Source: Patescibacteria group bacterium | Lineage (GTDB): Bacteria; Patescibacteriota; Patescibacteriia; GWA2-46-9 | DNA: 64,000 nt | NCBI GenBank assembly: GCA_041660005.1 | Contig: JBAZXG010000006.1 | Span: forward strand, 1,879 to 65,878 | Direction of reading: 5' to 3' | Part shown: piece by piece, positions 25,879 through 53,375 of the stretch | Position numbering within the stretch: position 1 is the first letter of the stretch | Layout of the letters: the number at the start of each line of letters is the position of its first letter | Notes under the pieces: generated by a model | Told to the model about the DNA's origin: nothing | Database searches by the model: none | The model's input: only the letters and a program-made list of their open reading frames with translations | Position numbers and translations under genes: made by a program

Positions 25879-27465
<1,587 letters not shown>

Positions 27466-27559
27466 TTAATCCTCTTTGCTCCGAAGAACAAAGAGGGGTG
27501 GTTGCGATATAGACACACCGTCTATACCAACAACCGAAAAGAAATTTAACGGAGGTTTC

Positions 27560-37345: not shown

Positions 37346-37379
37346 AATGGTTTATTAAACCAGTATAGCATAGAGATTA

Positions 37380-37805
37380 CGGCTGCTTGACGCACGGAAT
37401 AATTTTTGAACGACCTCATACTGAGGGAAACCTGCCCGACTGTGTCATTCAGGCGGGGGAACATTAAGGAAAATCCCACACCCTAAACAATCCGCCTGCG
37501 AGTGAAGTAATCATGAGCACGCAGGCCGTAGGGCTTGCCTGCTTGCGCGCGGAATAATTACTTCACGACCTCACGCAGAGGGAAAGAGTTATTCGAGAAA
37601 ACTCCGCCAAAGGCGGACAGGCATAATGTTGTCTCGAAAGAGCTATTACTGAGTGAGAACTTTTCGAGAACCACAATCTGTCTATGACAGTTGTGGAAGC
37701 GGAGAAAAGTTCGAACGTCCTCTGCTGAGGGAAAGGAACATTAAGGAAAATCCCACAGGGACTTCCGTTGGTCGCCGGAAGGTTTGCCTTAACTCTTGAA
37801 AGGAG
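37380..37805 (-). repeat. Copy 3 (longest, modules A-B-C-D-A'-E) of the tRNA-flanking repeat family, immediately 3' of tRNA-His on the minus strand
   Basis: The reverse complement matches copies 1 and 2 module by module (e.g. gtgaagtaattattccgcgcgcaagcaggcaagccctacggcctgcgtgctcatgattacttcac). It begins gttaaggcaaaccttccgg just 3' of the tRNA, as at tRNA-Leu(CAG). Confidence 0.6.
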
Positions 37806-37809
37806 CCAC

Positions 37810-37885
37810 TGGGGCGGCCAGAGGGAGTTGAACCCTCACCGAAAGGTCCACAACCTTTTGTGCTAACCGCTACACCATGGCCGCC
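37810..37885 (-). tRNA. tRNA-His (anticodon GTG) with encoded G-1 and CCA
   Basis: Reverse complement G-GCGGCCA-TG-GTGT-AGCGGTTA-GCAC-A-AAAGG-TTGTGGA-CCTTT-CGGT-GAGGG-TTCAACT-CCCTC-TGGCCGC-C-CCA. G-1:C73 is the hallmark of tRNA-His. Confidence 0.8.
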
Positions 37886-37974
37886 CCACTAGCACCTTTC
37901 TTAAAGTGTGCTTCATCATAACGTTTCAGACGACAAACTGTAAAGGTTGACACGAAGCTTCCATACTTTAAGAT

Positions 37975-38472
37975 ATGTCCATCAAGCGAAGGAGGCCTAG
38001 CATGGGCAAGTCAGGAGACGCCCCACATGATGTCCATAACAAGGTCGTCGGGTGGGTGAAGCGAAGAATCAGGAACATCGGCTATGAGGTCCGAGCACCT
38101 AACGGTCGCAGTAACTCGTGCTGCTGCTGCGACCTATTGGTGAGCCATAACGGAAACCGTCCGCTGAGGGTAGCAATCAAAGCTGTGACGATGAGGAGGT
38201 ACACGAATCGCCAAATCAATGGCAACGGCAGTACGCGAAAGTACCACTACCGTGCAGCAAGAACAAACCTACACGACTGCCGGCTATCACGGAGGGCGTC
38301 TGCCGAAGTAGCAGTCATTTGCGTCTTGGAAGACGACCGTATCGTGGTCAGCTACGTTCTTCCATGGCGCGAACTGAGACGAAGGCGGAGCGTGTTCATT
38401 CAACCCGCAGAGACCGTCAGTGGCACGAAGTGGTATGACCAGTATGAGGAGACCTGGTCGCTACTGGGCTGA
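37975..38472 (+). CDS. Hypothetical basic protein, markedly GC-richer than its surroundings, with a CCCC tetracysteine; likely horizontally acquired
   Basis: ORF track 165 aa (start may be the internal MGKSGD). No family recognised. Lies between tRNA-His/repeat and the dikinase operon. Confidence 0.35.
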   Translation: MSIKRRRPSMGKSGDAPHDVHNKVVGWVKRRIRNIGYEVRAPNGRSNSCCCCDLLVSHNGNRPLRVAIKAVTMRRYTNRQINGNGSTRKYHYRAARTNLHDCRLSRRASAEVAVICVLEDDRIVVSYVLPWRELRRRRSVFIQPAETVSGTKWYDQYEETWSLLG

Positions 38473-38496
38473 GTGTAGCTCTCCTCTAACAACCAA

Positions 38497-38529
38497 GCGA
38501 CCCCCTGCAAAGCACAAGCAGGGGGTCGC
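38497..38529. terminator. Strong bidirectional terminator hairpin (12-bp GC stem GCGACCCCCTGC/GCAGGGGGTCGC)
   Basis: Between convergent genes 37975-38472(+) and 38546-39526(-). Confidence 0.6.
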
Positions 38530-38545
38530 ACACGTTTACCAATAA

Positions 38546-39526
38546 TTAATGTAGGGTCGTAATCGGTCGCGACTGAGTGATGTAAAACTTTTTCTTATAC
38601 AACGCCCATTCAATATCTTGTGGGTGTTTATAATGGCGTTCAATCAATACGCAAATTTTTGCGAGTTCTATAATTTGTTTACCTGTGAGCTTTTGCTTGC
38701 CACCAACCTTCGGACTTAACTTTTTTTCTATAGTACCTTTTTGCGCTCTAACAATCGCCATTCTTTGCTCAGATACATTAATGTCGAGAAGTGAATAATT
38801 TTTCTTCAAAATAACGTAGGTGTCAGGGGTGACCTGTCCAGAAACAATCGCTTCTCCTAACCCAAAGCCAGCTTCAATGACTATTTGATCTCGATCGTTC
38901 GTTACAGGATGAGTAGTGAAGGCAATGCCAGAAACTTCAGATTGCACCATTTGCTGCACCACAACAGCGACGGATACAGGCACACGATGCAGTTTTTTCT
39001 CAAAACGATAAAAGATCGCGCGTGGGGTGAATAACGACGACCAACATTTCATTACTGATTGAGTAAGATTTTTTTCAGATACGTTCAAGTATGTTTCTAA
39101 CTCACCTGCCCAGGAAGCAACTTTTGAGTCTTCGGCTGTGGCAGATGAACGCACTGCAACAAGAATTTTTTTGCCTTTGCTTAACTGTTTATACGCTGCC
39201 TTAACTTCTCTTTGCAAGTTTAATGGCATTTTCTCTCGGTGTATAATGTCACGAATTTTAACCGACGCCTTTTCGACCGAGTTAATATCTTTGGGCTTCA
39301 CACTGTGCAAAATGTTTTCGAGTTCAATATTAATGTCTGTTTCTGCCATAAACGCATCAAAAGCAGATGCTAGCACAACAAAACCAGGCGGCACGAATCC
39401 CTGGGCTTGCCCGCCGAATCCTTGGAGAAGGTGGGTCATTTCGCCCAAGGAAGCACCTTTGCCACCAGCGATTTTTACGTCACTATTAGTTATTTTTTCA
39501 AAAACTTTTGTGAACAATAAACTCAT
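38546..39526 (-). CDS. Stand-alone PEP synthase/pyruvate phosphate dikinase N-terminal ATP-grasp (PPDK_N) nucleotide-binding domain protein; last gene of the operon
   Basis: 326 aa; GGKGASLGEM, VPPGFVVLASAF, VAVRSSATAEDS..SWAGELETYLNV, QDIEWA..FYITQSRPIT. These are the canonical PPDK_N blocks, with no His or PEP-binding domains. Confidence 0.85.
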   Translation of the reverse strand: MSLLFTKVFEKITNSDVKIAGGKGASLGEMTHLLQGFGGQAQGFVPPGFVVLASAFDAFMAETDINIELENILHSVKPKDINSVEKASVKIRDIIHREKMPLNLQREVKAAYKQLSKGKKILVAVRSSATAEDSKVASWAGELETYLNVSEKNLTQSVMKCWSSLFTPRAIFYRFEKKLHRVPVSVAVVVQQMVQSEVSGIAFTTHPVTNDRDQIVIEAGFGLGEAIVSGQVTPDTYVILKKNYSLLDINVSEQRMAIVRAQKGTIEKKLSPKVGGKQKLTGKQIIELAKICVLIERHYKHPQDIEWALYKKKFYITQSRPITTLH

Positions 39527-41034
39527 ACTTTTTTTATTATACCTCTATTCGCATCAACCTCAATAATATCGCCCTCCTTAATTTGTTCTAAAACGCCCTG
39601 CGCACCAACAACCGCCGGTATTTTTAACTCCCGCGACACAATTGCCGCGTGCGAAGTAATACCTCCTTCTTCCGTCACAATACCACCAGCAATTTTCATA
39701 ACGGGTATATACTCTGGGCGAGTGTTTGGCGCAACAAGAATGTCGCCACGTTGGAACTTTTTAAAATCTTTTTGACTAAGCACAATCTTGGCAGTACCAA
39801 TAACTTTACCAGGATACGCCGTTCGACCAACTACGTTATCAGTAACAACCAAACTATTCATAAACTGTAATAACGCCTTTGCTTCCCGACCGCTGACAAA
39901 CTGAAGAGTTGTTTTTTTAGGAATAGCAACAAAAATCCCTCGCCTACGTGTTTGTAATATCTTACGATACTGTGATGTCGGCGAAAGTAATTTTTCCGCC
40001 TCCCAATACAAGGCGTACTCCGCTTCACGTAATGGCACACGACTTCTTCTAGTAAATTCTTGAAGGTACCGCTTCAGTAGTTCGTTCCCCATTTGGTTCA
40101 TAGCTTTTCGCTCATCCCGCCAGGTGGCAACAATACTGATCATGTTCGCTACCAACAAAACGGCATGCGGAATTTTCATGCGGCGAATAAATACTTTTTT
40201 CTTTAATAAGTCCCTCTTCAAAACAGCAGGCAATCGTAACTCATTATTTAATTTCTTAGGATTTTTTAGCAGTTCACGAATTGTATTTAAAAAATGACTT
40301 GATGTCAGGCGACGTACAAACGCATAATCACTGAGTGACCAAAAATATGTATCAGTGTGTGCTTTAATTTTCTGAACAAAAAATGGAAACCGCTTAGTAA
40401 TAACACCAATACTTGCACCTTTTTTAATCAAACCCTGAAGAGCAGGATTTCTTTCTGCAGCGGCGGCAAGGCGAGCAATATCTAGACGTTCAATTTGTGT
40501 TGGTAGCAAATAAGGACTCTGAACTAGTAGGTCAACTTCGGCTGAAGTTAGACGCACTCCTGCTTTATCGCACACGTTGTAAATAAGTGTCTCTCCGAAC
40601 ACATCAAAAGCATCATGAAACATTGATTCGCGCCAGAGAGAGTGATACTTTTCAATTTCAACATAGTAGCACTTCAAAAGTTCTGCATTACTTAATTGTT
40701 GTATGCCAGCCCACGGCAGTCCTTTAACGACCGAATCTTGAAACTGTTTATATGATTTACGCCATTTTTGGTAGCGACTCCACATATCACCGGGAATGTT
40801 TTGCTCACGATGTAAAAAATAGTTTGTAACTCGCTTCGCATCTTTCTTGGAAAAAAACAGGGTTGCATAATCGTTACTAAAGTAGGTTAAAAAACAAAGC
40901 TGCAAATCCACTGTTTTTTGATCTACGGTCATAGCGACACAGCTACTGTATGGTGGCGAAATATACAAAATTTTAACTGCGGCACCTTGACGGTACCATT
41001 TCAGTTTTGCCAGCTCTTTTTGGACAAATTTCAT
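39523..41034 (-). CDS. Paralog 6: divergent ~410 aa N-terminal domain + C-terminal PEP-utilizing-enzyme phosphohistidine (swivel) domain
   Basis: C-terminus RGDILVAPNTRPEYIPVMKIAGGIVTEEGGITSHAAIVSRELKIPAVVGA (TSHAAI catalytic His). ATGA overlap with the downstream ATP-grasp gene. Confidence 0.8.
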   Translation of the reverse strand: MKFVQKELAKLKWYRQGAAVKILYISPPYSSCVAMTVDQKTVDLQLCFLTYFSNDYATLFFSKKDAKRVTNYFLHREQNIPGDMWSRYQKWRKSYKQFQDSVVKGLPWAGIQQLSNAELLKCYYVEIEKYHSLWRESMFHDAFDVFGETLIYNVCDKAGVRLTSAEVDLLVQSPYLLPTQIERLDIARLAAAAERNPALQGLIKKGASIGVITKRFPFFVQKIKAHTDTYFWSLSDYAFVRRLTSSHFLNTIRELLKNPKKLNNELRLPAVLKRDLLKKKVFIRRMKIPHAVLLVANMISIVATWRDERKAMNQMGNELLKRYLQEFTRRSRVPLREAEYALYWEAEKLLSPTSQYRKILQTRRRGIFVAIPKKTTLQFVSGREAKALLQFMNSLVVTDNVVGRTAYPGKVIGTAKIVLSQKDFKKFQRGDILVAPNTRPEYIPVMKIAGGIVTEEGGITSHAAIVSRELKIPAVVGAQGVLEQIKEGDIIEVDANRGIIKKV

Positions 41035-42548
41035 AACTTTCTTACTAATCCTTGATCACTATCAATTTCGACAAAATCACCATTCTTTAATACTTTCGTG
41101 GCGACTTTGGTGCCAATTATACAAGGGATGTTCAGTTCACGGGCAATAATTGCTGCATGGCACGTTATACCACCTTCGTCGGTAATAATGGCCCTGGCTT
41201 GACGCACAAGCGGCATAAATTCCGGCCGCGTCATTGTTGTTACCAAAATTGAACCTTTTCTAAATTTCGATTTACTGACCTCAAGCACTACCTGAACACG
41301 ACCTTGAATTTTTTTTACTGGCGAAGCAACAACTTGCCCTTTAATTTCTTTTTTACTTGCTTGGTTAATAAAAATAACACTCCAAATTTTTTTTGCACTG
41401 CTACCTGTATAAATATGTTCATAATTTATACCATTTCGTTTTGTCTGAACGAAAGCTGAAAACTTGCGACGTAGAGCTAATTCGCGTTTATTTGGTATTT
41501 TACCGCCACGCAATAACTGATGACGTTCTTCAATACTCAAATATTTTATCTCCCAAATATTTAGCTTGCTCCGCCGTTCAAGTTCGTTAGCATAAACCTC
41601 AAAATACAGATTAGCAATTAGTGCCAAATGCTTCCTTTCGTCTATCCAACTCATCCAAAAAGACAGTAGTTTAAAGGCAGTTTTTAATTCGTAAGAAAGT
41701 CTAAATTGTTTACGTAAGCGGAACTGTGCTAATCTTAGTCTCTTTATTTTTGATAGTAAATTATACAACTCGACTTTTAACTTTTTTTGAGAGTTCTCTT
41801 CGCATTGTCGTCGTACCTCTTTATAAAGAATGCTAGGAATCAATAAATTGGATTTCTTATAGTTTGAATTAAGCCAGAAATATTTTTTTGATAACAGATT
41901 GACAGTTTTTTGAAGCGCTGTCGGACTTTTTGACAAAGAACTGAATCTACGAACTACGCCGTACCATCGAACGGCTACTTCTAGAACTTCACATTGATAC
42001 TCCTCAAGAAAACTTAACTTTAATGGTTGCGATAAAGTTGCCATGATATTTGTTACCTCCGCTGGTGTAAGCTGCGGTAGCTCCCGAGATAGTAACTTCG
42101 GTAATTCATACGTTGTAAAAACATCTGCCGATTCTAATACCCAAGTAATTCGCCAATGGTCAAGAACGAGCCGATTAAAACGGTCCATGGATTTGATTAC
42201 TTCCTGATCGCTCAACCCATTTCTTGATTTAATAAAAAAATCTCCCTCTCTATTAATACCACGCCTAACTTCCCGCCAGAGTTCATAATTCTTTCGCTGC
42301 AATGTTGAACCTCTTTGATACTTTTTCCAAAGATAATGCCAGATTGCCAATTTTTGATCCTCGGGTGTCTCTTCAAATACAAAATCCGATTTGAAAAATG
42401 CTACCATAAAGTTTGGCAACGTTGGATGCCAAAATTTTGACTGCTCAACAAAAGCACGAACCCAAATAGAAAACATGGGCACCGCTGGTGCCTCCTCCGA
42501 CCAGTAAGTATGTTTTTTTGTTTCTTTCAACGTTCTTTCTAAACTCAT
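41031..42548 (-). CDS. Paralog 5: N-terminal unknown domain + PEP-utilizing swivel domain
   Basis: C-terminus KGSILVTTMTRPEFMPLVRQARAIITDEGGITCHAAIIARELNIPCIIGT; ATGA overlap both sides. Confidence 0.8.
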   Translation of the reverse strand: MSLERTLKETKKHTYWSEEAPAVPMFSIWVRAFVEQSKFWHPTLPNFMVAFFKSDFVFEETPEDQKLAIWHYLWKKYQRGSTLQRKNYELWREVRRGINREGDFFIKSRNGLSDQEVIKSMDRFNRLVLDHWRITWVLESADVFTTYELPKLLSRELPQLTPAEVTNIMATLSQPLKLSFLEEYQCEVLEVAVRWYGVVRRFSSLSKSPTALQKTVNLLSKKYFWLNSNYKKSNLLIPSILYKEVRRQCEENSQKKLKVELYNLLSKIKRLRLAQFRLRKQFRLSYELKTAFKLLSFWMSWIDERKHLALIANLYFEVYANELERRSKLNIWEIKYLSIEERHQLLRGGKIPNKRELALRRKFSAFVQTKRNGINYEHIYTGSSAKKIWSVIFINQASKKEIKGQVVASPVKKIQGRVQVVLEVSKSKFRKGSILVTTMTRPEFMPLVRQARAIITDEGGITCHAAIIARELNIPCIIGTKVATKVLKNGDFVEIDSDQGLVRKL

Positions 42549-43996
42549 ATTTTCCTCACAACTCCGGTGTTTCCGTTTACTTCAATTCTGTCACCCGTTT
42601 TAAATACAGCTGTAGCTATCTCTGTTCCCGTAACGCAGGGTATCCTAAGTTCACGAGAAATAATGGCTGCGTGCACGGTTACTCCACCTTCGTTCGTTAC
42701 CACGGCCACAGCTTTTTTCATGGCCGGAACAAAATCAGGGGTCGTCATTGGTGTAACTAAAATGTCTCCCTTTTTCAAAAATTTTATGGCTCGGCGAGGG
42801 TCCTCGGTCACAAATGCCCTACCGGTCGCGATACCAGCCGAGGCTGGTGCACCTTTAACAGAGGTTAGATTATTATTCTTTAATTTCAACTTATTATCAA
42901 TAAAGCGTAACGCTTGTTTACCGGTTTTTTCTAATTTTTTTGAGCCGTTCATAACAACCAAATAACCAGATTTACGATCAATTACTGTACGCTTTGGAAT
43001 TTTGCCGGTTCGAATAACACGACGCAGCTCATTTGGTTTCAGCCAAACGAGATCGGCCATTTTTAAACTATACGTCCGAGCAACTTTTCTTCTAATTTCA
43101 TCCATTAAAAAGAGCGAGCGCATCTGAATTTCTTTTCTTTGATCGTGCATGCGAGCGATCTTGTCAAGAACCGTCAAATAAGGTCGCACTACTTTTTCCG
43201 GCACTTGAAAACGCTTAAGAACGGCACGCCTATTTTCAGCAATTCTTTTTGCGTAGTCTAAAATATACTTTCTCTCTTGTTGATATTCTATTGATGTCAA
43301 TTTCGCACAAGCTCGAGTTTCTTGTTTTATTTTTTTTCGGGTCAACACCCCTCTTCCACCCCAACCTATAGTCAACCAATAATACTTTCGATAAATGTGC
43401 TCGACGTCTTGAGCGCTGACTAGAAATTTTTTATTTTTGATTTTTTTAGAGAGTTCAAGTATGGCCAATTTATAATTCAAAACTTCACTTCTGTACGCTG
43501 GTTGTAAAACCTTGGACCAGGCATCTTTGTCGTCTACTAAGTTCGGATATCCCTGACGTGAAACTTCTCTGGTCACTATTTCTTCAAAAAAGTCATCGAA
43601 CGCATCAATGCCAACACCAACGATACGGCAATGTTCAACAGCTAAGTCATGTATGGTTGTGTACACTTTGATTAAAGCTTCTGTGTTTTTCGGCAAAGTG
43701 GAAGAAATCAATAACGAAAAATACGCCAGAGCATTTTTGTAGTGCTTATTTTCCACTCTATAAAATCTTCCGTTCACACCACTTGTTATCATTTTTTGAA
43801 CCCACTTTACCCCAACATTTTTATACTCAGGCATCCCATAGGCCCAATAAATATGCGACCCCTTAAGCGCAACGGCTAAACGTGGAGCAATATGATACTC
43901 GACGCCGCGCATGGGTTTTGCCATAGATTCAAAGTATGGCTGAAGCGCTGCAAAGGTTACGCCATCCCGTTCATAAAGTTTGTACTGTGCATTCAT
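42545..43996 (-). CDS. Paralog 4: N-terminal unknown domain + PEP-utilizing swivel domain
   Basis: C-terminus KGDILVTPMTTPDFVPAMKKAVAVVTNEGGVTVHAAIISRELRIPCVTGT. Confidence 0.8.
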   Translation of the reverse strand: MNAQYKLYERDGVTFAALQPYFESMAKPMRGVEYHIAPRLAVALKGSHIYWAYGMPEYKNVGVKWVQKMITSGVNGRFYRVENKHYKNALAYFSLLISSTLPKNTEALIKVYTTIHDLAVEHCRIVGVGIDAFDDFFEEIVTREVSRQGYPNLVDDKDAWSKVLQPAYRSEVLNYKLAILELSKKIKNKKFLVSAQDVEHIYRKYYWLTIGWGGRGVLTRKKIKQETRACAKLTSIEYQQERKYILDYAKRIAENRRAVLKRFQVPEKVVRPYLTVLDKIARMHDQRKEIQMRSLFLMDEIRRKVARTYSLKMADLVWLKPNELRRVIRTGKIPKRTVIDRKSGYLVVMNGSKKLEKTGKQALRFIDNKLKLKNNNLTSVKGAPASAGIATGRAFVTEDPRRAIKFLKKGDILVTPMTTPDFVPAMKKAVAVVTNEGGVTVHAAIISRELRIPCVTGTEIATAVFKTGDRIEVNGNTGVVRKI

Positions 43997-45465: not shown

Positions 45466-45468
45466 TAA

Positions 45469-46479
45469 CTAATGCTGTGCATCTTCGGCTTCAAACTTCG
45501 TTTGTGCCGCCGCAGCTAACTCAATTATTTTATCCCAATCTAAAGAAACTTTTTTACCCTCAAAAAGCTTTGCGCGCGCTGGGTCGGTAAACTCACAAGA
45601 AATTTCCGTATCTCGAGTAAAATCAGCAATATTTCGAGGATCGCCAAGCCGAGTATCCCTTTGAAGCTTAAGACGTAAGGCTGTCGCTTGGCTTGTAAAG
45701 CCGCCAATTTCGTCAACATCATCAAAGCCAATTTTTCTCTCTCCCGTTTTTTCATCCTCAACAACTAAAGCATATTTGTATAAAGATTCAGCGAACATAC
45801 CACTGCCGACAATTGGAATGGCTTTTGTTTCTCCTCCCTTCACTCCACGGCGAGAAAGTTCTAGGGTCTTCATGAGCTCATATGCCTCATTTTCTGCCAT
45901 AGTCCTAACTTCGGGTTCCTTTTGCATGGCTTTTCTGAAAGCAATGTTTTGTGCCATCTCCACATATTTCACTCTAAATTCTGGGTCCTGCTTAAATCTC
46001 TCCTGCTCTTCCGGACTTAGACCAGAAACCAGTCGACTAATCTCTGTACTCACAAGTTCCATTTCAGCTCTAAATTTATCAAGAAGACCCGCCCCCTTAT
46101 AGTCAACACCAATGCCACGACGCGTACCAATCACTTTACCTTTTCCATTACGCACTCGAGCTGGGCCGAGATCTTTTGACAGTCTTCCGACACCAAACCG
46201 TCCGCTCCCTTTTAATATATCTTCCCCTGTCTCACCATGGCGCGACTCGTCTCCGCCTCTTGGATGAACGAGAGTCACTTCTGGTGGGTAGGCCTCACCA
46301 AATTCTCTAGACATTTGTTTACCGGCAGGGGTCAAATCTGTTGGATCTTTGAAAGTAATAATACTGCCATCACTGAACGTAATCTTTCTCTCTCCTCCAT
46401 AACGACTACCGTGTCGTCCTAGGTCAATATAGGTAGTTGCAACAAATTGTTTTTCAGCCTCTGGGTTTCTTTCTACCAT
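45469..46479 (-). CDS. Hypothetical protein, possibly histidine-phosphatase-like (RHG motif: IDLGRHGSRYGGE)
   Basis: 336 aa. The family call is weak and rests on one motif. Confidence 0.35.
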   Translation of the reverse strand: MVERNPEAEKQFVATTYIDLGRHGSRYGGERKITFSDGSIITFKDPTDLTPAGKQMSREFGEAYPPEVTLVHPRGGDESRHGETGEDILKGSGRFGVGRLSKDLGPARVRNGKGKVIGTRRGIGVDYKGAGLLDKFRAEMELVSTEISRLVSGLSPEEQERFKQDPEFRVKYVEMAQNIAFRKAMQKEPEVRTMAENEAYELMKTLELSRRGVKGGETKAIPIVGSGMFAESLYKYALVVEDEKTGERKIGFDDVDEIGGFTSQATALRLKLQRDTRLGDPRNIADFTRDTEISCEFTDPARAKLFEGKKVSLDWDKIIELAAAAQTKFEAEDAQH

Positions 46480-46480
46480 A

Positions 46481-47074
46481 TTAAAAGATGCTAAATAAAT
46501 CTTTTTTAAGTTGGCCTACTGACGTATAGAGTAGCACTTTCATACCCGCATCGTTAGCACCTTGCACCCTTTCAGGGCGATCGTCAATATAGACGGCCTC
46601 TTCTCCTTTAACCCCTGCCCTTGCAAGGGCTAAATCAAAAATTCTTTTGTCCGGCTTTCGAATATGGTCGAACCCCGACACCGTTTTTACGGTAAACAAA
46701 TTGTCCCATCCGTAGCTACTGTTTAAATACTCAAACCACTCCTTGGGATTATTGGATATCACTCCGAGAATGAATTTTCCTTTCAATGTCTTTATAAATT
46801 CATAGAGCTCAGTATTGGGAGCAAAATGTCCGTAGATGTTTTTATTTAGCTCAACAATATTGAGTTCACCCTTAAAATCTTTTTTTAGTTCTTCGTAATA
46901 TTTTTTTTCAGAAATATTCCCTAGGGTAAACTCCTTCCAATACGGCCGATCGTGGGCTGAGGCGTAAAGCTCGCCCGCGTTTAAACCATGTGACTCTTCA
47001 TACTGCCGAATACCGGGATTATACCCTTCGGTCACTAACACACTACCGGAATCGAAGAATATTGCCTTCACCAT
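46481..47074 (-). CDS. HAD-superfamily-like hydrolase/phosphatase
   Basis: 197 aa; motif I-like IFFDSGSVL, motif II VISNN, motif III/IV K...VYIDDRPE. Confidence 0.55.
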   Translation of the reverse strand: MVKAIFFDSGSVLVTEGYNPGIRQYEESHGLNAGELYASAHDRPYWKEFTLGNISEKKYYEELKKDFKGELNIVELNKNIYGHFAPNTELYEFIKTLKGKFILGVISNNPKEWFEYLNSSYGWDNLFTVKTVSGFDHIRKPDKRIFDLALARAGVKGEEAVYIDDRPERVQGANDAGMKVLLYTSVGQLKKDLFSIF

Positions 47075-47086
47075 ACTGTTTAGGCT

Positions 47087-48583
47087 CTATTTTGCCCGTT
47101 CAAGAATACGGACGATTCCTTTTTGCGCATCAACTTCCAATAAATCATTGTCACGAATAATGCGCGTGCCATTCTCTGTAGCGATAACGCACGGCACGCC
47201 GAGTTCGCGCGAAACAATTGCCGCATGTGATGAAAGCCCACCCTGATCTGCCACAACTGCCGCCGCTTTTTCCATAGCTGGTACAAAATCTGGCGTAGTG
47301 AATTGAGCAACGAGAATATCACCCCGGTTTACTTTGCCGATTTCACTTTTGTCCAGACACACCTTGGCTCTTCCTTTGATGATTCCACCAAGACAAGCCA
47401 TTCTTCCAAAAATTTCTTCTTCTTGTTTAACATCAACATAATACTTTTTTTCTAACTGCTTAATCCTTGCAGGATCAGTAATCAGTTCAGTAACGGCATT
47501 CCTAACCAGCATTGCATAGTCGCGAAGTCGCCGTTGCATCTCAGATATGTTCGGCAGTGATTTACCCTTGAGCGCACCAAACATTTCTGGCACCGACACC
47601 TCCATTATCCAGTCTTCATTAAACTTGGAACGCTTGGCAACTTCGGCATACATGAAACTTGCGCCATAGTCAGCATTAAAAAAAGCTTCCACTCTGCGGT
47701 TACGCATATACGAATGCATTCTTGCTTGCTTGATGATATGTAGAAAATCCTTTTTGGGTTTAATTTTCTTTAACGCCCACTTATAGTCATCTTTAATTTT
47801 CTGCTCAGAAGCTTGGTAAATTAAATCGCTGATAGACTCCCCCGCACTAATCTGCTTCTTTATTTCCTTTAACCTATCCACGATGTCCTTGAAGTTGTAC
47901 GGCTTACTTGTTGCGAGCCCCCTGTTAATATACGCAAATTTATCTAAATGCTTCTCAATAATTCCTGTTGCTTTTTTTGACAAGTGGCTAAGATCTTCTT
48001 TTCTTTCGGCAAATACTTTGGCGATACGGACAAGCTTCCACCGCTCTTCGGCGACATCGGTCATGTCCTCTGGGTCGGTAAAGATCAGCACATATTTCCT
48101 AAAATCCGGATTATCGGCAGATATATAGGACAACAATTGTTCTTCAATTAATCCTTCAAAATAAATATCAAGTGAATACTGTGCGTACCATGCGCACATT
48201 AGTGGACTATACTCTTCGAGGAGTGTCTTAAGAACGGACTCCATTTGTTTATTCGTCTTTTTGCTCCAGTCAACCTTTTTAAGTGCGAGTCCTTTTTTAT
48301 ACAAATGCTCGGCCCTCTTTAATTGCTGCTTAGCATATTTTTCAAACCAGCCGTCATTCTTTTTCATGTGACCAAGAAGCTCTTCTTCGAAAGGATTATA
48401 CTCTTCAGCTGACCAATACATCATGTGGTGCAAATATGCTCTATTAGGCAAGGTACGAGTGAAATAAGATTTTTTCGCGTTTTCGGCAGTGAACGACGCA
48501 TTAATGATAAACCTGATAAAAATCGGCAGTTTCCCCGATGGTTTGATTCTCCATTTTCCCGAATGCATAACAGCTCCAATCAT
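47087..48583 (-). CDS. Paralog 2: N-terminal unknown domain + PEP-utilizing swivel domain
   Basis: C-terminus RGDILVAQFTTPDFVPAMEKAAAVVADQGGLSSHAAIVSRELGVPCVIAT. Confidence 0.8.
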   Translation of the reverse strand: MIGAVMHSGKWRIKPSGKLPIFIRFIINASFTAENAKKSYFTRTLPNRAYLHHMMYWSAEEYNPFEEELLGHMKKNDGWFEKYAKQQLKRAEHLYKKGLALKKVDWSKKTNKQMESVLKTLLEEYSPLMCAWYAQYSLDIYFEGLIEEQLLSYISADNPDFRKYVLIFTDPEDMTDVAEERWKLVRIAKVFAERKEDLSHLSKKATGIIEKHLDKFAYINRGLATSKPYNFKDIVDRLKEIKKQISAGESISDLIYQASEQKIKDDYKWALKKIKPKKDFLHIIKQARMHSYMRNRRVEAFFNADYGASFMYAEVAKRSKFNEDWIMEVSVPEMFGALKGKSLPNISEMQRRLRDYAMLVRNAVTELITDPARIKQLEKKYYVDVKQEEEIFGRMACLGGIIKGRAKVCLDKSEIGKVNRGDILVAQFTTPDFVPAMEKAAAVVADQGGLSSHAAIVSRELGVPCVIATENGTRIIRDNDLLEVDAQKGIVRILERAK

Positions 48584-48601
48584 ATATTTCAGTTGAATTG
48601 A

Positions 48602-49171
48602 TTAAAGTAGTTTGTCGAAACAATGCGGATGTTCTATATAATATGAAAGCTCGCGCACAAAAGTTTCTACTAAGTTAATTTTGTTTTGTTGATGTAGTGC
48701 CCAAACTTCCTGTAGGTCGAAGGCATCAAAATCACTAATTTCAACTTTATTCGGAACGAATGGGCCGTCTGTTTGTCCTATGTACCAATATACCATGATG
48801 CCTCCTATCGATAAATCGGGCATGGGCAAAATTTTAAATAGGGTAATTTCTGTGTCGATCGACAGCTCCTCAGACAATTCACGCTTTGCTTCTTCTAGAA
48901 TTTCCTCTTTCGTGCTCGCGCCTGCGCCTACAAAACCACCGACTGCATACGACCAGCAATTGGGCTGTAAGTCTTTTGTAGCGCTACGCTGTTGTAGCCA
49001 AAATTTCCCGTCAGTATTACGTAACCAAATATGGGCTGACCGTCTCATTATTTTTTTGTTTGTTAAAAACTCTCTCCTACTCGCTCGACCAATGACCCTG
49101 TCGTTCATGTCAACAATATCATGAAGCTCTTCCAGCGAGTCAGTGGTATTGGTTAAGTTGACTTGACTCAT
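48602..49171 (-). CDS. NUDIX hydrolase
   Basis: Nudix box GGFVGAGASTKEEILEEAKRELSEELSI (GX5EX7REUXEEXGU). Confidence 0.8.
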   Translation of the reverse strand: MSQVNLTNTTDSLEELHDIVDMNDRVIGRASRREFLTNKKIMRRSAHIWLRNTDGKFWLQQRSATKDLQPNCWSYAVGGFVGAGASTKEEILEEAKRELSEELSIDTEITLFKILPMPDLSIGGIMVYWYIGQTDGPFVPNKVEISDFDAFDLQEVWALHQQNKINLVETFVRELSYYIEHPHCFDKLL

Positions 49172-49174
49172 AAA

Positions 49175-49813
49175 CTATTCGTGTAATTTTTGTTCTACGT
49201 CTTGCAGGTCATACAGATTTCCTATTTCTGCATAACCTTGCTTCACTCTGGCACCTTTATTGTCGTTTTGTATATGATAGGTGCGGTATGTAAAATCAGG
49301 GAGTTCACTAATCAATTCATCGGCAGCTTCGATAAACGACTGGCAGTTAATTACCCTGTCGTCGGTATAGACAACTGTCTTAAATCCTTCATTATATTTT
49401 CTTTTTAATAAGTCCTTCAACATCTCTTTTGTTTTGCAGTTAGTGTCTCCGTAATCAAACGTGCTATTAATTTCTTCTATGAAATCACGAAAATCAAACC
49501 CGCAACGAGGATTCAAATATTCTGCACGCCAATCAAGTTGCTCGCGGTTACCTTGAGTAAAAACAATATTATTTTTTGTCCATGTTAAAACATCTTTAAA
49601 TCCTTTATTCGGACCCAATTTGAACATCCCTTTTTTGTAAGGTTTTTCATAAAGCCACTCATAGTCACGCGGGCTAATTGTTTTTAAGTCATATCCTAAG
49701 GATTCGACATACGCGCCCATGTTCGAAAAACCTGTACCCTCAGCATCCCAAGGTTCGAGTATGATGGTATTTGCAATGTCCCAAATATAGAGGGTTTTAC
49801 TCTCGCTCGTCAT
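49175..49813 (-). CDS. Hypothetical protein, weakly HAD-like (LYIWDIANTII ... VVYTDDRV), paralogous to 46481-47074
   Basis: 212 aa; motif resemblance only. Confidence 0.35.
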   Translation of the reverse strand: MTSESKTLYIWDIANTIILEPWDAEGTGFSNMGAYVESLGYDLKTISPRDYEWLYEKPYKKGMFKLGPNKGFKDVLTWTKNNIVFTQGNREQLDWRAEYLNPRCGFDFRDFIEEINSTFDYGDTNCKTKEMLKDLLKRKYNEGFKTVVYTDDRVINCQSFIEAADELISELPDFTYRTYHIQNDNKGARVKQGYAEIGNLYDLQDVEQKLHE

Positions 49814-49815
49814 AT

Positions 49816-51348
49816 TTATATTTTTTTCACCACTCCATGATTTGCGTTAACTTCTACAAGGTCTCCGTCTTTCAAAACCTCTGTGGCTATTTTAGTTCCA
49901 ATAATACAAGGTATTCCGAGTTCCCTCGAAATAATTGCGGCGTGTGAAGTAACGCCACCTTCGTCAGTTACAATCGCAGCAGCTAACTTCATGGCAGATA
50001 TGTAATCAGGCCTCGTCATAACGGCTACCAGAATATCGCCTCTCTGAATCTTATTAACTTCTTTTACGCTTTTTAGCACCTTAACTCTCCCAACGACTTT
50101 TCCAGTAGAAGCAGCTAACCCTCTGAATTCGTTCATACCTGATACATCGGTACTGCCGAAAATTTTTTCTTTTACGGCATCCGCATCGTGACCAGACAAT
50201 GCTTCATGGCCTTCTTTGTCCCAATAAAAAACACAACCTTTTCTCCTCTCCCTTAACTCTTTTACCTTTGGCTTTTCCTGAAAAATTTTCGACACCTCTC
50301 TCGGGCTCAAATACTTAAGCTCTTCCAAGGGAATTCTTACCCTGCGGCTAATCTCTCCCAAAATTAAACTCATGTAATGCATTGTCCAAAACACCGCCTT
50401 TTTACGATCATCCTGCCACTTAGTAAAATCTTCTGAAATAGTGATCATTGCTTTGAGCTCACTCGATAGCTGCAATTTTTTCATCATTTCTTGCTTCTTT
50501 TTCTTATTCAACGCTGGCGTTTCTTTAACCCTTTTGAGTTCCTCTTTTATATTAAGCTTCAGTTTTTTAAGATTCGCTATTTCTTTTTTAAAATAGTCAA
50601 CACTCAACACATGATGATCCACATAATTATTATGAATCCAGAAGTAACTTTGCTGATGCTTTTTTAATGCTTCCCGACCCCCCTGCAGCGCAACGCTAAG
50701 TAAGCTCACCTCTGCTTCATTAATAAAAGAAAGATGTACCGGAGCGGTTAAAATAGAAAAAACATCTGTAAAACGGTGAGTGTTTTTTATCTTGGACTGG
50801 TTATACGCCACTTGGATCTTTTTTGCCACCAACTCATCAGTGCCAAGAGCAAAAGCGTCAATTAAGGAACTAGAGCTATTTCTCTTTAATATAACTTCTA
50901 CAAAGTCATCATGGAGCTGCATCAACGCTCGATTATTGAGCTTTGTTAACTTCTTTTGTTTAACTTCTTTGCATTTCTGATAAAATGCTACCTCATCTTT
51001 TTTCCAGAGCTCCATAAAGTAACGACTGACATGGGGAATCTTTTTCGCTCTTTTAAGTATGGCAGTATATGTTCTTTTGATGTCTCGCATCAAAATGTAC
51101 CAACTCATCCCTCCATCTCTAAAAAAACCATAATGTACACTACAGTCACCACCGAGCTTCCTTTCTTTGTGTACCTGAATTTCTGCTTCCGCAATGAAGT
51201 GAACAAAGTAGGGCGAGGCATCAAATGCTTGAAGATACCACTGTTTCCGAGTCCACAAATGTAGTTTTCTTTTTGTTAACCCTTTAATGTATTGCATGAA
51301 ATTTTTATTGCCGAGGATAGCGAGTGAAGCGCAAATAGCAATTTGCAT
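49816..51348 (-). CDS. Paralog 1 (first gene of operon): N-terminal unknown domain + PEP-utilizing swivel domain
   Basis: C-terminus RGDILVAVMTRPDYISAMKLAAAIVTDEGGVTSHAAIISRELGIPCIIGT. A shared N-domain motif (S/K)YFW..NY is seen in several paralogs. Confidence 0.8.
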   Translation of the reverse strand: MQIAICASLAILGNKNFMQYIKGLTKRKLHLWTRKQWYLQAFDASPYFVHFIAEAEIQVHKERKLGGDCSVHYGFFRDGGMSWYILMRDIKRTYTAILKRAKKIPHVSRYFMELWKKDEVAFYQKCKEVKQKKLTKLNNRALMQLHDDFVEVILKRNSSSSLIDAFALGTDELVAKKIQVAYNQSKIKNTHRFTDVFSILTAPVHLSFINEAEVSLLSVALQGGREALKKHQQSYFWIHNNYVDHHVLSVDYFKKEIANLKKLKLNIKEELKRVKETPALNKKKKQEMMKKLQLSSELKAMITISEDFTKWQDDRKKAVFWTMHYMSLILGEISRRVRIPLEELKYLSPREVSKIFQEKPKVKELRERRKGCVFYWDKEGHEALSGHDADAVKEKIFGSTDVSGMNEFRGLAASTGKVVGRVKVLKSVKEVNKIQRGDILVAVMTRPDYISAMKLAAAIVTDEGGVTSHAAIISRELGIPCIIGTKIATEVLKDGDLVEVNANHGVVKKI

Positions 51349-51584
51349 TTCCGAGCGACGATAGAATCAAAGGGTTTAATACCCCGCGGCTACGCCGCGA
51401 TCCCTTTCTCAATCCGCCCACTGGCGGATTGATGGATCCAGGGCTTTGCCCTGGGGTTAATACCATTTATTTGCTTTTCTGTGAGATACCGTTACTTTAG
51501 CCGGTAATGAAAGTTTAGGCAAATCAAAAAACTACGAATTTTCTAAGAAAAACGGGCATTTTCTCAGTATTTTCCGCTTAACCA

Positions 51585-51613
51585 TTGACACATTTCAAGG
51601 GATGCGCTATGCT
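51585..51613 (+). promoter_or_regulatory. Sigma70-like promoter TTGACA-N17-TATGCT on the PLUS strand, reading into the ORF-free structured region
   Basis: accaTTGACAcatttcaagggatgcgcTATGCTact. Confidence 0.4.
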
Positions 51614-51619
51614 ACTTAG

Positions 51620-52580
51620 TTCCTTAAATGGAACATCCCGCTCTTTCATAGATTTAAAACCATACAGGGGAGAGAGACTCTGTAGAACCAAGGGCAGCGC
51701 ACGCTGTTTTTGGCGATACGCAAAAAGGCGTAACTCTCTCGAGTTGCGTCTTTTTGCTAAAGACGAGGTGACTACCGACTTCTGGGGCTAGACCTGTTCC
51801 GCTTTATGTGGACGGGATGGCTGACGGAAAGAATGGGCTGGTGCATAACTAGCTTGCTCCTTCTTTAAAGCCCCACACTTGGACGGCTTTCGAGCCAAAC
51901 CCAAGCCCTAGCCCGGAGGTCGGTGGACATCTCACAAGATGCACACTTTTGTGGTGGTCCTGTTATCAGGGCACCCACCGATGTGGAGGGTTAGAATCGT
52001 TCCGCCGACAGTGCGGACGATCGTTTTGAAGGAAGGATTGTTCTGGTTTATACTAGAACGCACCTTCTTGAGAAACATACCCAACGAATACCTTCGGGTA
52101 ACACGTTGGCCTAACCTCCAAATCGGTGGGTTTGTAAAAAACTCACAAACAGTGCGACGCGCGTGTGCGACGATAATCCACTCCTCATGGGAGGGAGAGT
52201 GGACAAGGGTCAGGAATACACAATTTTCCTACCCGCTCGCACACTACGCCGACGGATGTGGATGGCTCTGGCACACATCCCTTCCGTCGAAATTTGGCCA
52301 CATGGTCACGCTTCTAACCTGCTCTGAGGAGTACGGCTAAAGCCCGTCCGTGGCCAAAAGTTGAGAGACGACCGCATAATCGTCTCGCCAACATTGGAGG
52401 AGTCGTCTTGCTAATACCAAGCGACTCCTCCTACCACTTTATTTTTATAATAGGTACGTCGCCCTTTGCGATGAACGTCTCAATGCGTTAATCTCAGTGG
52501 GCGCCTAGTGCCTCCTTCGCGCAAAAGGGTGGCGGAGACGTGACCTTTACGCCTCCGCCACTCGCAAATCTTTTTTGCGG
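51620..52580 (+). ncRNA. Candidate large structured non-coding RNA (~0.95 kb), GC-enriched relative to coding flanks, ending at an intrinsic-terminator-like hairpin + T6 (52531-52576)
   Basis: No ORF >133 aa in any frame across 51349-53375; only short composition-biased ORFs. Dense local hairpins. Promoter at 51585-51613 and hairpin GGCGGAGACGTGACCTTTACGCCTCCGCC followed by ...tctttttt. No match to the rRNA, RNase P, tmRNA or SRP hallmarks I checked by eye. Confidence 0.3.
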
Positions 52581-52794
52581 CCTCCTCCCCTGAGGTCGCA
52601 AAGGGGGGAGGGTGCGCTTGTGCAAAACCGTGCATGTCGTGCCCTCCTCACCTCTCTTTTCTATACACCGGCGAGCTCGCACTCTCGCCTCTTCTCAAGG
52701 GGCAAGTAGTTCTCAAACACAAACGTCTCCTAAACAGGAAACGTATGCCGCGAGATAAATCTCTCTCCTCCTACTTGCCCCTTGAGAAGAAAAG

Positions 52795-52875
52795 CTTTAA
52801 AGGAAACCACACGGTTTCCTTTAATATTTCTTTCCCTCAGCATGAGGTCATTCAAAAATTATTCCGTGCGAGAAC
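52795..52875 (+). repeat. Copy 4 (fragment, modules A3'/E) of the tRNA-flanking repeat family, not next to a tRNA
   Basis: ggtttcctttaatatttctttccctcagcatgaggtcattcaaaaattattccgtgcg vs 23528-23590 and the reverse complement of 37386-37440. Confidence 0.55.
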
Positions 52876-53375
52876 ATTGTTACTCTTTTGCTTGTCCGAA
52901 TTTATTAACAAGAGCGAGTCCGCCGGAGGCGGATCCGCCTTCGGCGGAAAAATGACACCCGAAGGACTCGGCTGGGGGCTTGCTTCAGTGAGTGGGTCGA
53001 CGACCATGAACTTGTCGTCCGCACAATGGCGGACTCCTCAAACAGCATGGTCGTTTCTCGGCTCACTTTCCTCGCAAACTCCTACGCCGATCCTATAGGT
53101 AGTTTCACTCGGCTCTGACAAACCCCATCATCGACCGAGGAGAGCAGACAGACGAAACGAACACGAAAGAGCGGCAATGCTGTCTGAAGCGTAGCAAGTT
53201 CATTGCCGCCGTGTTCGTTTCGGCATGGCTGCCGACCAGGAGCGTCGATGCGGGGCGCCCTTCTTTTGGTTCGTTTTCTTGGGCGTGCAAGAAAATGAAC
53301 AACCGGCGGCCCTGCATCGCAGGACAAGTTTATTGAGCGAAAATTTTAGAAGGTTACGTTATAAAACGTATACCA

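What the first reader, a model, noticed from the sequence alone, without database searches (positions are those of the whole stretch)
37380..52875. The dikinase operon lies in an island-like segment bracketed by tRNA-His and copies of a dispersed repeat, with a GC-rich foreign-looking ORF
Left boundary: tRNA-His (37810-37885) plus the longest copy of the repeat family (37380-37805). Next comes a GC-rich basic ORF with a CCCC motif (37975-38472) and a strong bidirectional terminator (38497-38529). Right boundary: the 2-kb ORF-free structured region (51349-53375) containing another repeat fragment (52795-52875). tRNA genes are classic integration hot-spots, and repeat copies at both ends suggest acquisition or rearrangement by recombination between repeats.
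Basis: inference. Interest (0 to 1): 0.55.

Follow-up and report, generated by a model that had tools for sequence, protein, structure and literature searches.

The report
Old variable dikinase locus, not mobile island
The AT-rich 13-kb "dikinase" operon sits in a chromosomal slot that several related Candidatus Uhrbacteria share, so it is an old accessory locus with changing gene content, not a recently inserted tRNA-targeted island. Its two "boundary" features are a tRNA gene and a previously undescribed structured RNA gene, each followed by the same 3'-flank sequence module.

Summary

**For island-like behaviour**
- The operon (38546-51348) has about 40% GC against 47-49% in the flanks, and its tetranucleotide distance from the flanks is z 3.3-6.6.
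- One related lineage (L036) has a clean empty site, with ymdB 62 nt from the ATPase gene.
- Gene content in the slot varies among relatives: 6, 4, 4, 3, 1 (decayed) or 0 carrier genes.

**Against a tRNA-integrated mobile island**
- There is no integrase or transposase.
- No part of tRNA-His is duplicated elsewhere in the window.
- The operon lies on the 5' side of the tRNA.
- The order ymdB, noncoding region, operon, tRNA-His, ATPase, HK recurs in three other lineages whose Rny+YmdB are only 70-84% identical to the window's.
- The GC-rich ORF has positional homologues in two of those lineages.

**What the "boundaries" are**
- The repeat is a module found directly 3' of stable-RNA genes, in their orientation. 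It follows tRNA-Leu, tRNA-Phe, tRNA-His and a new RNA.
- The "ORF-free region" holds a promoter-led structured RNA of roughly 1.2 kb with strong covariation and no Rfam match.

**The operon**
It encodes one ATP-grasp subunit and six rifampin-phosphotransferase-like carrier proteins. This is a split small-molecule dikinase array.

The parts
37346..37809 (-). tRNA-His 3' trailer. It carries 3-4 tandem copies of a modular repeat: a variable hairpin followed by a conserved tail, TTTTCCTTAATATTCCTTTCCCTCAGCAGAGGACG.
   Evidence: A shorter version follows tRNA-His in L029 and L120.
37810..37884 (-). tRNA-His(GUG). Its 3' end faces the ATPase gene and its 5' end faces the operon.
   Evidence: The same position relative to PPDK_N and the ATPase/HK genes is seen in L029, L118/L119, L120 and L122.
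37975..38472 (+). orf165, a small basic fast-evolving protein of unknown function. A promoter-like site lies at 37947-37974.
   Evidence: Positional homologues: L120 orf160 (31% id, E 3e-17) and L122 orf144 (29% to orf160, E 3e-7). It is an orphan in the 5.8-billion-protein search. The single-sequence model is weak (pLDDT 63) and gives only a nuclease-like hint.
38497..38529 (.). 12-bp GC-rich hairpin between convergent orf165 and PPDK_N.
   Evidence: -27.8 kcal/mol, z -7.8. An equivalent hairpin occupies the same place in L120 and L122.
38546..39526 (-). Stand-alone ATP-grasp (PPDK_N) component, equivalent to HpeI/PpsB and to the N-terminal domain of rifampin phosphotransferase.
   Evidence: Pfam PF01326 E 4.5e-93. 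PDB 5HV6/5FBS E 4e-60 over residues 9-326. 65-83% identical across Patescibacteria.
39523..45465 (-). Four carrier paralogues, mob1-mob4 (39523-41034, 41031-42548, 42545-43996, 43993-45465). Each has a ~400-aa N-terminal domain plus a C-terminal phospho-His swivel domain. Adjacent genes overlap by 4 nt.
   Evidence: The paralogues are 26-39% identical to one another.
45469..46479 (-). 336-aa protein of unknown function. It has an RHG motif by eye. Histidine-phosphatase membership is not established.
   Evidence: No Pfam, NCBIfam or PHROG hit. Weak similarity to the L029 294-aa accessory protein (E 0.019).
46481..47074 (-). HAD-family hydrolase.
   Evidence: Pfam PF00702/PF13419.
47087..48583 (-). 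Carrier paralogue mob5.
   Evidence: It has a 65% orthologue in L037.
48602..49171 (-). Nudix hydrolase.
   Evidence: Pfam PF00293 E 3.7e-10.
49175..49813 (-). 212-aa protein with only a weak HAD-IIIC hint.
   Evidence: NCBIfam TIGR01681 E 0.014, below cutoff. It has a 60% orthologue in L037.
49816..51348 (-). Carrier paralogue mob6, the one modelled. It is the first gene of the operon.
   Evidence: AF2 pLDDT 92.7, pTM 0.90. The only full-length structural matches are Listeria rifampin phosphotransferase (E 7e-14, about 560 aligned columns). His469 is invariant in 50 homologues.
51585..51613 (+). Promoter-like site (TTGACA, 17 nt, TATGCT) pointing away from the operon. The -35 box is identical in all four lineages.
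51618..52795 (+). Candidate structured non-coding RNA of roughly 1.2 kb. It has a 5' domain (51618-52115), a variable middle, and a 3' hairpin element (52685-52795, 20-bp stem). Transcript ends are inferred, not mapped.
   Evidence: 5' domain: 116 predicted pairs, 91% of cells paired against 37-50% when partners are slid, and 48 pairs with changes on both sides against 7-10 slid (0/500 shuffles reach this). The plus strand is favoured. 3' hairpin: -48.4 kcal/mol, z -8.4. nhmmer finds it in L029, L120 and L037, with the 3' element also in L033/L035. No Rfam family matches.
52797..52870 (+). 12-bp hairpin plus one copy of the repeat module, directly 3' of the RNA candidate and in its orientation.
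52871..53375 (.). Non-conserved spacer with local hairpins, running up to the ymdB stop codon.
   Evidence: It aligns poorly with L029.

Best explanation
The interval is a long-resident accessory locus of a Candidatus Uhrbacteria (Patescibacteria) lineage. It is AT-rich and occupies a fixed slot between ymdB and tRNA-His/ATPase.

**The operon.** Its core is a split small-molecule dikinase operon. One ATP-grasp protein would phosphorylate the swivel histidine of six different carrier proteins. Each carrier has a rifampin-phosphotransferase-like substrate domain and would pass the phosphate to its own small-molecule substrate. Two HAD-type proteins, a Nudix hydrolase and an unknown protein accompany them.

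**The borders.** The slot is bordered by two stable-RNA genes: tRNA-His and a previously undescribed structured RNA of roughly 1.2 kb, transcribed divergently from the operon. Both are followed by the same module (a hairpin plus a conserved tail), which also follows tRNA-Leu(CAG) and tRNA-Phe. That accounts for the 'repeat at both ends'.

**Turnover.** Gene content turns over between lineages by differential loss, and possibly by homologous replacement. One lineage has lost the whole segment or never had it.

**Shown:** anatomy, synteny, composition, protein fold, RNA covariation.
**Inferred:** phosphorelay from one ATP-grasp protein to six carriers, the substrates, the function of the repeat module, and the mode of turnover.
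For: **Synteny**
- L029 (Ca. Uhrbacteria GCA_002793855.1), L120 and L037/L122 all show Rny, YmdB, a 1.3-2.4 kb noncoding region, carrier genes, PPDK_N, tRNA-His, ATPase, HK.
- An antisense small ORF between PPDK_N and tRNA-His is present in L120 and L122 but not in L029.
- Rny+YmdB identity to the window is 84, 73 and 70%.

**Content**
- Carrier-gene counts are 6 (window), 4 (L037), 4 (L118), 3 (L120), 1 frameshifted beside an rve IS (L029) and 0 (L036).
- The window shares carrier orthologues with L037 (65, 46 and 43%) but none with the closer L120. L120's set matches L118's (81 and 71%).

**Composition**
- The locus is 6-12 GC points below its flanks in the window, L029, L120 and L037. The same holds in a Doudnabacteria cluster, L121.

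**No mobility signature**
- No integrase or transposase was found by Pfam.
- No second copy of either tRNA-His end exists in the window.

**Dikinase**
- PPDK_N matches the RPH ATP-grasp domain.
- The mob6 model matches RPH over its full length.
- NCBIfam aligns mob6 residues 296-508 to RPH model positions 648-862.
- The catalytic His is invariant.
- Biochemical precedent exists: the two-component dikinases HpeHI, CreHI and PpsAB are split RPH homologues (PMC12167813).

**RNA and repeat**
- RNA; repeat.
Against: - The polarity of the empty site is unresolved. In bootstrapped NJ trees of Rny+YmdB, L037 is basal in 57% and L036 in 36% of replicates. L036 could therefore be the ancestral state, and the segment an ancient insertion.
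- The persistent low GC in every lineage is hard to reconcile with simple long vertical residence. It may mean repeated import from AT-rich donors.
- Only a handful of relatives were available, all from metagenomes.
- No expression data exist for the RNA or the operon.
- One-to-six pairing of the ATP-grasp protein with the carriers is inferred from gene content only.
Confidence: 0.65

Rival explanations
1. Ancient single insertion. The whole segment (RNA gene, operon, small ORF) entered between ymdB and the ATPase gene in an ancestor, after the L036 lineage had split off. It has been inherited vertically since, so L036 shows the primitive empty site.
For: - L036 has a clean 62-nt ymdB-ATPase junction with no remnants.
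- L036 is basal in 36% of bootstrap trees.
- Low GC and deviant tetranucleotide usage fit foreign origin.
- The operon family is widespread in other Patescibacteria.
Against: - L037 is basal in 57% of replicates.
- L036 is itself rearranged. Its tRNA-His lies upstream of rny, and TatD replaces the DHH-ClpP context that the outgroups conserve.
- Secondary loss demonstrably happens. L035 retains only the RNA's 3' element, next to an IS1595 transposase.
Confidence: 0.3
2. A classical, recently acquired genomic island that integrated at tRNA-His through a site-specific recombinase.
For: - A tRNA lies at one border.
- Composition is atypical.
- Presence varies among relatives.
Against: - No integrase or transposase in 37-53 kb.
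- No duplicated tRNA-His fragment anywhere in the window.
- The operon lies 5' of the tRNA, whereas classical tRNA-targeted islands lie at the 3' end (established knowledge).
- The same arrangement occurs in lineages only 70-84% identical in Rny+YmdB.
- The carrier paralogues are old, at 26-39% identity to one another.
Confidence: 0.03
3. The flanking repeat copies are recombination substrates that created or mobilise the segment.
For: - Copies of one repeat family lie near both ends.
- Short-read contigs from another sample break inside or near them (L032 ends at window 53256, L123 at about 37595).
Against: - The two copies are inverted, so exchange between them would invert the segment, not excise it.
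- The right-hand copy is a single 56-nt module.
- Other copies lie after tRNA-Leu(CAG) and tRNA-Phe, always directly 3' of an RNA gene and in its orientation.
- The module follows tRNA-His in L120 as well.
- L122 has the full segment but no module after tRNA-His.
Confidence: 0.1
4. The low GC is intrinsic to these genes and is not a sign of foreign origin. Lysine-, asparagine- and isoleucine-rich proteins and weak selection on rarely expressed genes, under AT-biased mutation, would produce it.
For: - GC1 and GC2 are lowered as well as GC3.
- The deficit is present in every lineage, including ones with long shared synteny.
- Carrier genes evolve fast, with orthologues at 43-65% against 70% for housekeeping neighbours.
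Against: - PPDK_N is under strong constraint (65-83% identical across Patescibacteria) yet is also AT-rich, at 41% GC.
- The non-orthologous carrier sets in closely related lineages are easier to explain if some exchange occurs.
Confidence: 0.3

Closest known systems
Two-component small-molecule dikinases HpeHI, CreHI and phenylphosphate synthase PpsAB (split homologues of rifampin phosphotransferase; PMC12167813)
   Same: - The ATP-grasp protein is separate from the protein carrying the substrate-binding and swivel-His domains.
- The carrier's fold matches the rifampin-binding and swivel domains of RPH.
- The GGxTSHAA histidine motif is conserved.
   Different: - Here one ATP-grasp gene accompanies six divergent carrier genes rather than one.
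- The carriers are about 500 aa (roughly 58 kDa by length), against 71 kDa for HpeH.
- The partners are HAD and Nudix hydrolases, not aromatic-catabolism enzymes.
- The host is a reduced-genome Patescibacterium.
- Substrates are unknown.
Rifampin phosphotransferase RPH (PDB 5FBS, 5HV1; PMC4844700)
   Same: The domain set and order are the same once the two proteins are concatenated. RPH is the best and only full-length structural match.
   Different: - RPH is a single 865-aa chain.
- Sequence identity is only 15-17%.
- Nothing indicates rifamycin as a substrate.
tRNA-associated genomic islands
   Same: - Atypical composition.
- A tRNA gene at one edge.
- Presence or absence varies among relatives.
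   Different: - No integrase.
- No att duplication.
- The segment is on the 5' side of the tRNA.
- Its position is shared by lineages that diverged long ago.
Large structured bacterial RNAs of unknown function in Rfam (named from memory: OLE, ROOL, GOLLD, HEARO)
   Same: A long (over 500 nt), promoter-led, multi-helix RNA with covariation, lying in a variable genomic neighbourhood.
   Different: - No Rfam model matches at E<=5 beyond noise, in the window or in L120.
- It was found only in one Uhrbacteria clade.
- It was absent from the viral contig scan.

Membership tests
tRNA-integrated genomic island | Site-specific recombinase (integrase) gene at the tRNA-proximal end | tested here: not met
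   Pfam scans of all ORFs of 150 aa or more across 33-58 kb, plus the two non-conserved ORFs of 133 and 154 aa, give no integrase, transposase or recombinase.
tRNA-integrated genomic island | Direct repeat of the tRNA 3' end (attL/attR) at the far boundary | tested here: not met
   The 25-26-nt 3' and 5' ends of tRNA-His occur only once in the window at up to 3 mismatches.
tRNA-integrated genomic island | Island lies downstream (3') of the tRNA gene | tested here: not met
   The tRNA is on the minus strand with its 3' end at 37810, facing the ATPase gene. The operon lies on the 5' side.
tRNA-integrated genomic island | Atypical base composition | tested here: met
   GC 36-43% against 45-53%. 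Tetranucleotide distance z 3.3-6.6.
tRNA-integrated genomic island | Absent from the same site in close relatives | tested here: inconclusive
   Empty in L036 and disrupted in L035, but occupied in L029, L120 and L037/L122. Polarity is unresolved.
Two-component small-molecule dikinase (HpeHI/CreHI/PpsAB type) | Stand-alone ATP-grasp (PPDK_N) component | tested here: met
   326 aa. PF01326 E 4.5e-93. Aligns to RPH residues 8-317.
Two-component small-molecule dikinase (HpeHI/CreHI/PpsAB type) | Second component with an RPH-like substrate-binding domain plus a C-terminal swivel domain | tested here: met
   PF00391 is present in all six. The mob6 model (pLDDT 92.7) matches RPH over about 560 columns, E 7e-14, TM 0.50-0.54. 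Only mob6 was modelled.
Two-component small-molecule dikinase (HpeHI/CreHI/PpsAB type) | Conserved catalytic histidine in the T/SxxGGxxxH motif | tested here: met
   All six paralogues read GG(I/V/M/L)(T/S)xHAA. His469 is invariant in the 50-sequence alignment.
Two-component small-molecule dikinase (HpeHI/CreHI/PpsAB type) | ATP-dependent phosphorylation of a small molecule, yielding AMP and phosphate | not testable with these tools
   This requires enzyme assays.
Known RNA families (Rfam 15) | Covariance-model match for the 51.6-52.8 kb RNA | tested here: not met
   Only noise-level hits (E>=0.002, far below the gathering scores) in the window and in L120.
PD-(D/E)XK nuclease (considered for orf165) | Restriction-endonuclease-like fold with conserved D...(D/E)xK residues | tested here: inconclusive
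   The single-sequence model has pLDDT 63. The best Foldseek hit has E 0.014, though nucleases dominate the hit list. The candidate Asp is absent in orf144, and the Lys is Arg in orf160 and orf144.

The most novel reading that the evidence does not exclude
The slot is a cassette-exchange locus specific to Patescibacteria. A single, highly conserved ATP-grasp 'charger' serves an interchangeable array of substrate-specific phospho-histidine carrier kinases. The repertoire is reshuffled between lineages by recombination, anchored on the conserved PPDK_N gene at one end and on a new class of roughly 1.2-kb structured RNA at the other. That RNA is functionally tied to the operon.
Probability: 0.25. 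Interest if true: 0.75.

Novelty: new variant of a known kind. Interest (0 to 1): 0.55.

Why it matters
- **For genome scanning.** A tRNA plus repeats plus low GC can mimic an island when the region is in fact an old lineage-specific locus.
- **For Patescibacteria biology.** These are reduced-genome episymbionts with very limited metabolism. Here one ATP-grasp protein is paired with up to six rifampin-phosphotransferase-like carriers. This suggests a modular way to phosphorylate many small molecules, for salvage, detoxification or antibiotic inactivation, using few genes.
- **For RNA biology.** The neighbouring covarying RNA is a candidate new large structured RNA. The module shared by the 3' flanks of RNA genes may be a lineage-specific termination or processing signal.

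Tried and rejected
- **Genome-contig scan with YmdB.** It returned only relatives at 54% identity or less. Synteny stops at YmdB, so it says nothing about the slot.
- **Metagenome-contig scan with a YmdB alignment.** The derived patterns were too general. The best 80 loci were at most 56% identical, and none carried the operon or the left flank.
- **Exact look-up of the window's own YmdB and PPDK_N.** Only short contigs of the same strain were returned. They break inside or near the repeats.
- **Rfam.** Gathering and E-value modes found nothing for the RNA candidate or for the repeat.
- **Viral contig scan for the RNA's invariant 3' motif.** No match.
- **orf165.** No hit in Pfam, NCBIfam or PHROGs. 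Its L120 homologue has only an unannotated PHROG hit (E 2.9e-5). The homologue search found only the protein itself.
- **Homology of the 336-aa protein with the ~295-aa accessory proteins of relatives.** It is at best marginal.
- **Extra markers (ATPase, HK, o254, o739) to polarise L036 against L037/L122.** Distances to the window are about equal.
- **Literature searches.** None found a description of multi-carrier dikinase arrays in Patescibacteria.

Full report
**Observation**

- ARAGORN places tRNA-His(GUG) at 37810-37884 on the minus strand.
- A repeat family is real. Segments of 37388-37787 match 17413-17585 and 23375-23587 at 74-94%. A 56-nt piece at 52815-52870 matches 23529-23584 at 89%. 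Core motifs recur 3-4 times against about 0.02 expected by chance.
- The copy at 52.8 kb is inverted relative to the copy at 37.4 kb.
- The ORF at 37975-38472 encodes 165 aa, has 55% GC and 65% GC3, and contains CCCC.
- The hairpin at 38497-38529 is a perfect 12-bp stem (-27.8 kcal/mol, z -7.8). It has no U-tract.
- Region 51349-53375 has no conserved gene. Two mechanical ORFs of 133 and 154 aa exist there.
- GC falls to 36-43% over 39-51 kb against 45-53% elsewhere. Tetranucleotide distance from the rest of the window is z 3.3-6.6. The deviant part is the operon itself (38546-51348), not the tRNA, the small ORF or the noncoding region.

**Gene content**

The minus-strand operon encodes the following:
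- one stand-alone ATP-grasp PPDK_N protein;
- six ~500-aa paralogues that each end in a PEP-utilizers mobile domain;
- two HAD-type proteins (one of them only weakly HAD-like);
- a Nudix hydrolase;
- a 336-aa protein of unknown function.

Several neighbouring genes overlap by 4 nt. The paralogues are 26-39% identical to one another, so they are old duplicates. No integrase or transposase is present.

**Organism and relatives**

The best named YmdB relative (79%) is from Candidatus Uhrbacteria CG10_big_fil_rev_8_21_14_0_10_48_11. GTDB representative genomes gave nothing closer than 54%. Context look-ups of YmdB and PPDK_N homologues gave the comparison set below.

| Locus | Arrangement |
|---|---|
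| L029 (that Uhrbacteria genome) | ClpP, Rny, YmdB, 2.4 kb noncoding, one frameshifted mob4-like gene, an rve IS, a 294-aa gene, a truncated PPDK_N, tRNA-His, ATPase, HK |
| L120 | Rny, YmdB, 1.4 kb noncoding, three carrier genes, a 295-aa gene, PPDK_N, hairpin, antisense 160-aa ORF, tRNA-His, one repeat module, ATPase, HK, and the next two flank genes |
| L037/L122 | Same plan as L120, with four carrier genes and an antisense 144-aa ORF |
| L118/L119 | Four carrier genes, PPDK_N, tRNA-His, HK (no ATPase) |
| L036 | TatD, tRNA-His, Rny, YmdB, 62 nt, ATPase, HK, the next two flank genes. This is a clean empty site |
| L035 | After YmdB, only the 3' element of the noncoding RNA, then an IS1595 transposase and L21 |

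**Age and polarity**

- Rny+YmdB identity to the window is 84% (L029), 74% (L035), 73% (L120), 70% (L037) and 68% (L036).
- Bootstrapped NJ trees support (window, L029) at 100%, adding L120 at 98%, and adding L035 at 94%.
- The base of the clade is unresolved. L037 is basal in 57% of replicates and L036 in 36%. Four further flank markers do not help.
- Either way, the segment has held this slot since before lineages diverged to about 70% identity in housekeeping proteins.
- L036 is itself rearranged, because outgroups conserve DHH-ClpP-Rny-YmdB.
- L035 shows that secondary loss happens.
- I therefore favour ancestral presence with later loss, and keep 'ancient insertion after L036 split off' as a serious rival.

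**Why it is not a tRNA-targeted island**

- There is no recombinase.
- No part of tRNA-His is duplicated.
- The operon lies on the tRNA's 5' side. Classical islands lie at the 3' end (established knowledge).
- The small GC-rich ORF is a fast-evolving resident, not an import. It is 31% identical to L120's ORF (E 3e-17), which in turn matches L122's (E 3e-7).
- That ORF is otherwise an orphan. Its fold is undetermined, with only a weak nuclease-like hint.

**Why it is still island-like**

- The locus is 6-12 GC points below its flanks in every lineage examined. This includes an unrelated Doudnabacteria cluster, L121, which sits in a different context beside an rve fragment and toxin-antitoxin genes.
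- The carrier repertoire is mosaic. The window shares orthologues with the distant L037 (mob5 65%, mob4 46%, mob6 43%) but none with the closer L120. L120's set matches L118's (81 and 71%).
- L029 combines a mob4-like remnant with a 294-aa gene that is 88% identical to L118's.
- Differential loss from a larger ancestral array explains this. So does homologous replacement anchored on the very conserved PPDK_N (65-83% identical across Patescibacteria). I could not separate the two.

**The repeats**

- All four loci with the module lie directly 3' of a stable-RNA gene and in its orientation: tRNA-Leu(CAG), tRNA-Phe, tRNA-His and the RNA candidate described below.
- Each unit is a variable hairpin followed by a conserved T-rich tail and a small hairpin.
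- The module follows tRNA-His in L029 and L120 too, with a compensatory change in the small hairpin.
- I read it as a shared termination or processing flank of RNA genes. This reading is an inference.

**The 'ORF-free' region**

- Conservation with L029 begins exactly at a TTGACA-17-TATGCT promoter (51585-51613, plus strand) and runs about 570 nt at 74%. Gaps in the alignment are not multiples of three.
- Four lineages align across this region.
- RNAalifold on 51618-52115 predicts 116 pairs.
- 91% of cells are paired, against 37-50% when partners are slid. 48 pairs change on both sides, against 7-10 when slid. None of 500 shuffles reach the observed values.
- 63 G-U cells favour the plus strand. 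This comparison is biased, because the structure was predicted on that strand.
- A 3' element at 52685-52795 forms a 20-bp stem (-48.4 kcal/mol, z -8.4). It is conserved in five lineages.
- An invariant GGAGAGAGA near the 5' end is complementary to an invariant UCUCUCUCC in the 3' element. This pairing is untested.
- Rfam and the viral contigs hold nothing like it.
- Only four sequences support the structure, and the transcript ends are inferred.

**Operon mechanism**

- A confident model of mob6 (pLDDT 92.7, pTM 0.90) matches that enzyme over about 560 columns (E 7e-14, TM 0.50-0.54). All other hits cover only the swivel domain.
- NCBIfam extends the homology into the substrate domain.
- The catalytic histidine is invariant.
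- The N-terminal domain family has 1,444 cluster representatives, nearly all about 500 aa.
- The published two-component dikinases HpeHI, CreHI and PpsAB are split homologues of the same enzyme. In them the ATP-grasp protein charges the carrier's histidine (PMC12167813).
- By analogy, one ATP-grasp protein here would charge six carriers with different substrates. This is inferred. I found no description of such arrays.

**Verdict**

- The island interpretation is partly supported: the region is a flexible, compositionally odd locus, and an empty site exists in one relative.
- Its proposed mechanism (tRNA integration, repeat recombination, a foreign ORF) is not supported.
- The more interesting content is the one-to-six split dikinase array and the adjacent uncatalogued structured RNA.

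Noticed in passing
window 51585-52870 (+): A promoter-led structured non-coding RNA candidate of roughly 1.2 kb, with strong covariation. It has no Rfam match and is conserved next to ymdB in four Uhrbacteria lineages.
   Followed up: partly
window 17413-17585, 23375-23636, 37388-37787, 52797-52870: A modular repeat (variable hairpin plus a conserved ~56-nt tail). Every copy lies directly 3' of a stable-RNA gene and in that gene's orientation. It may be a lineage-specific terminator or processing flank.
   Followed up: partly
window 21677-21922: Around tRNA-Leu(CAA), the leader and 5' end are duplicated 51 nt apart (21677-21710 and 21728-21761). A copy of the tRNA's 3' half lies just downstream (21841-21922). 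This looks like a local duplication or a pseudo-tRNA.
   Followed up: no
window 23770-25000: A second AT-rich patch (36.6% GC at 24-25 kb, tetranucleotide z 3.5) lies directly 3' of tRNA-Pro. It holds two small ORFs that were not characterised (23793-24212 and 24421-24684). Its position fits the classical tRNA-island pattern better than the dikinase locus does.
   Followed up: no
window 25879-27467 (-): The 16S rRNA gene has no 23S rRNA gene anywhere in the 64-kb window. A membrane-protein ORF lies between it and tRNA-Ile(GAU). The rRNA genes appear to be unlinked.
   Followed up: no
window 19540-19670 and 27354-27386; L029 ~10900-11000: A short ATTTGC-rich repeated motif (CTATTTGCCATTTGC...) occurs at several places. 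One copy lies inside the 16S match, and another lies downstream of ymdB in the relative L029.
   Followed up: no
L029 13092-17402: In the closest named relative, the dikinase locus is decaying. It has a frameshifted mob4-like gene, an rve-family IS element, and a PPDK_N gene lacking its first ~60 codons.
   Followed up: partly
L120 1906-2289: A gene of the 23S_rRNA_IVP / bAvd family is inserted between rny and ymdB in this relative only.
   Followed up: no
L035 6501-7450: An IS1595-family transposase lies next to the remnant 3' element of the RNA candidate, where other lineages have the RNA body and the operon. This suggests IS-associated loss.
   Followed up: partly
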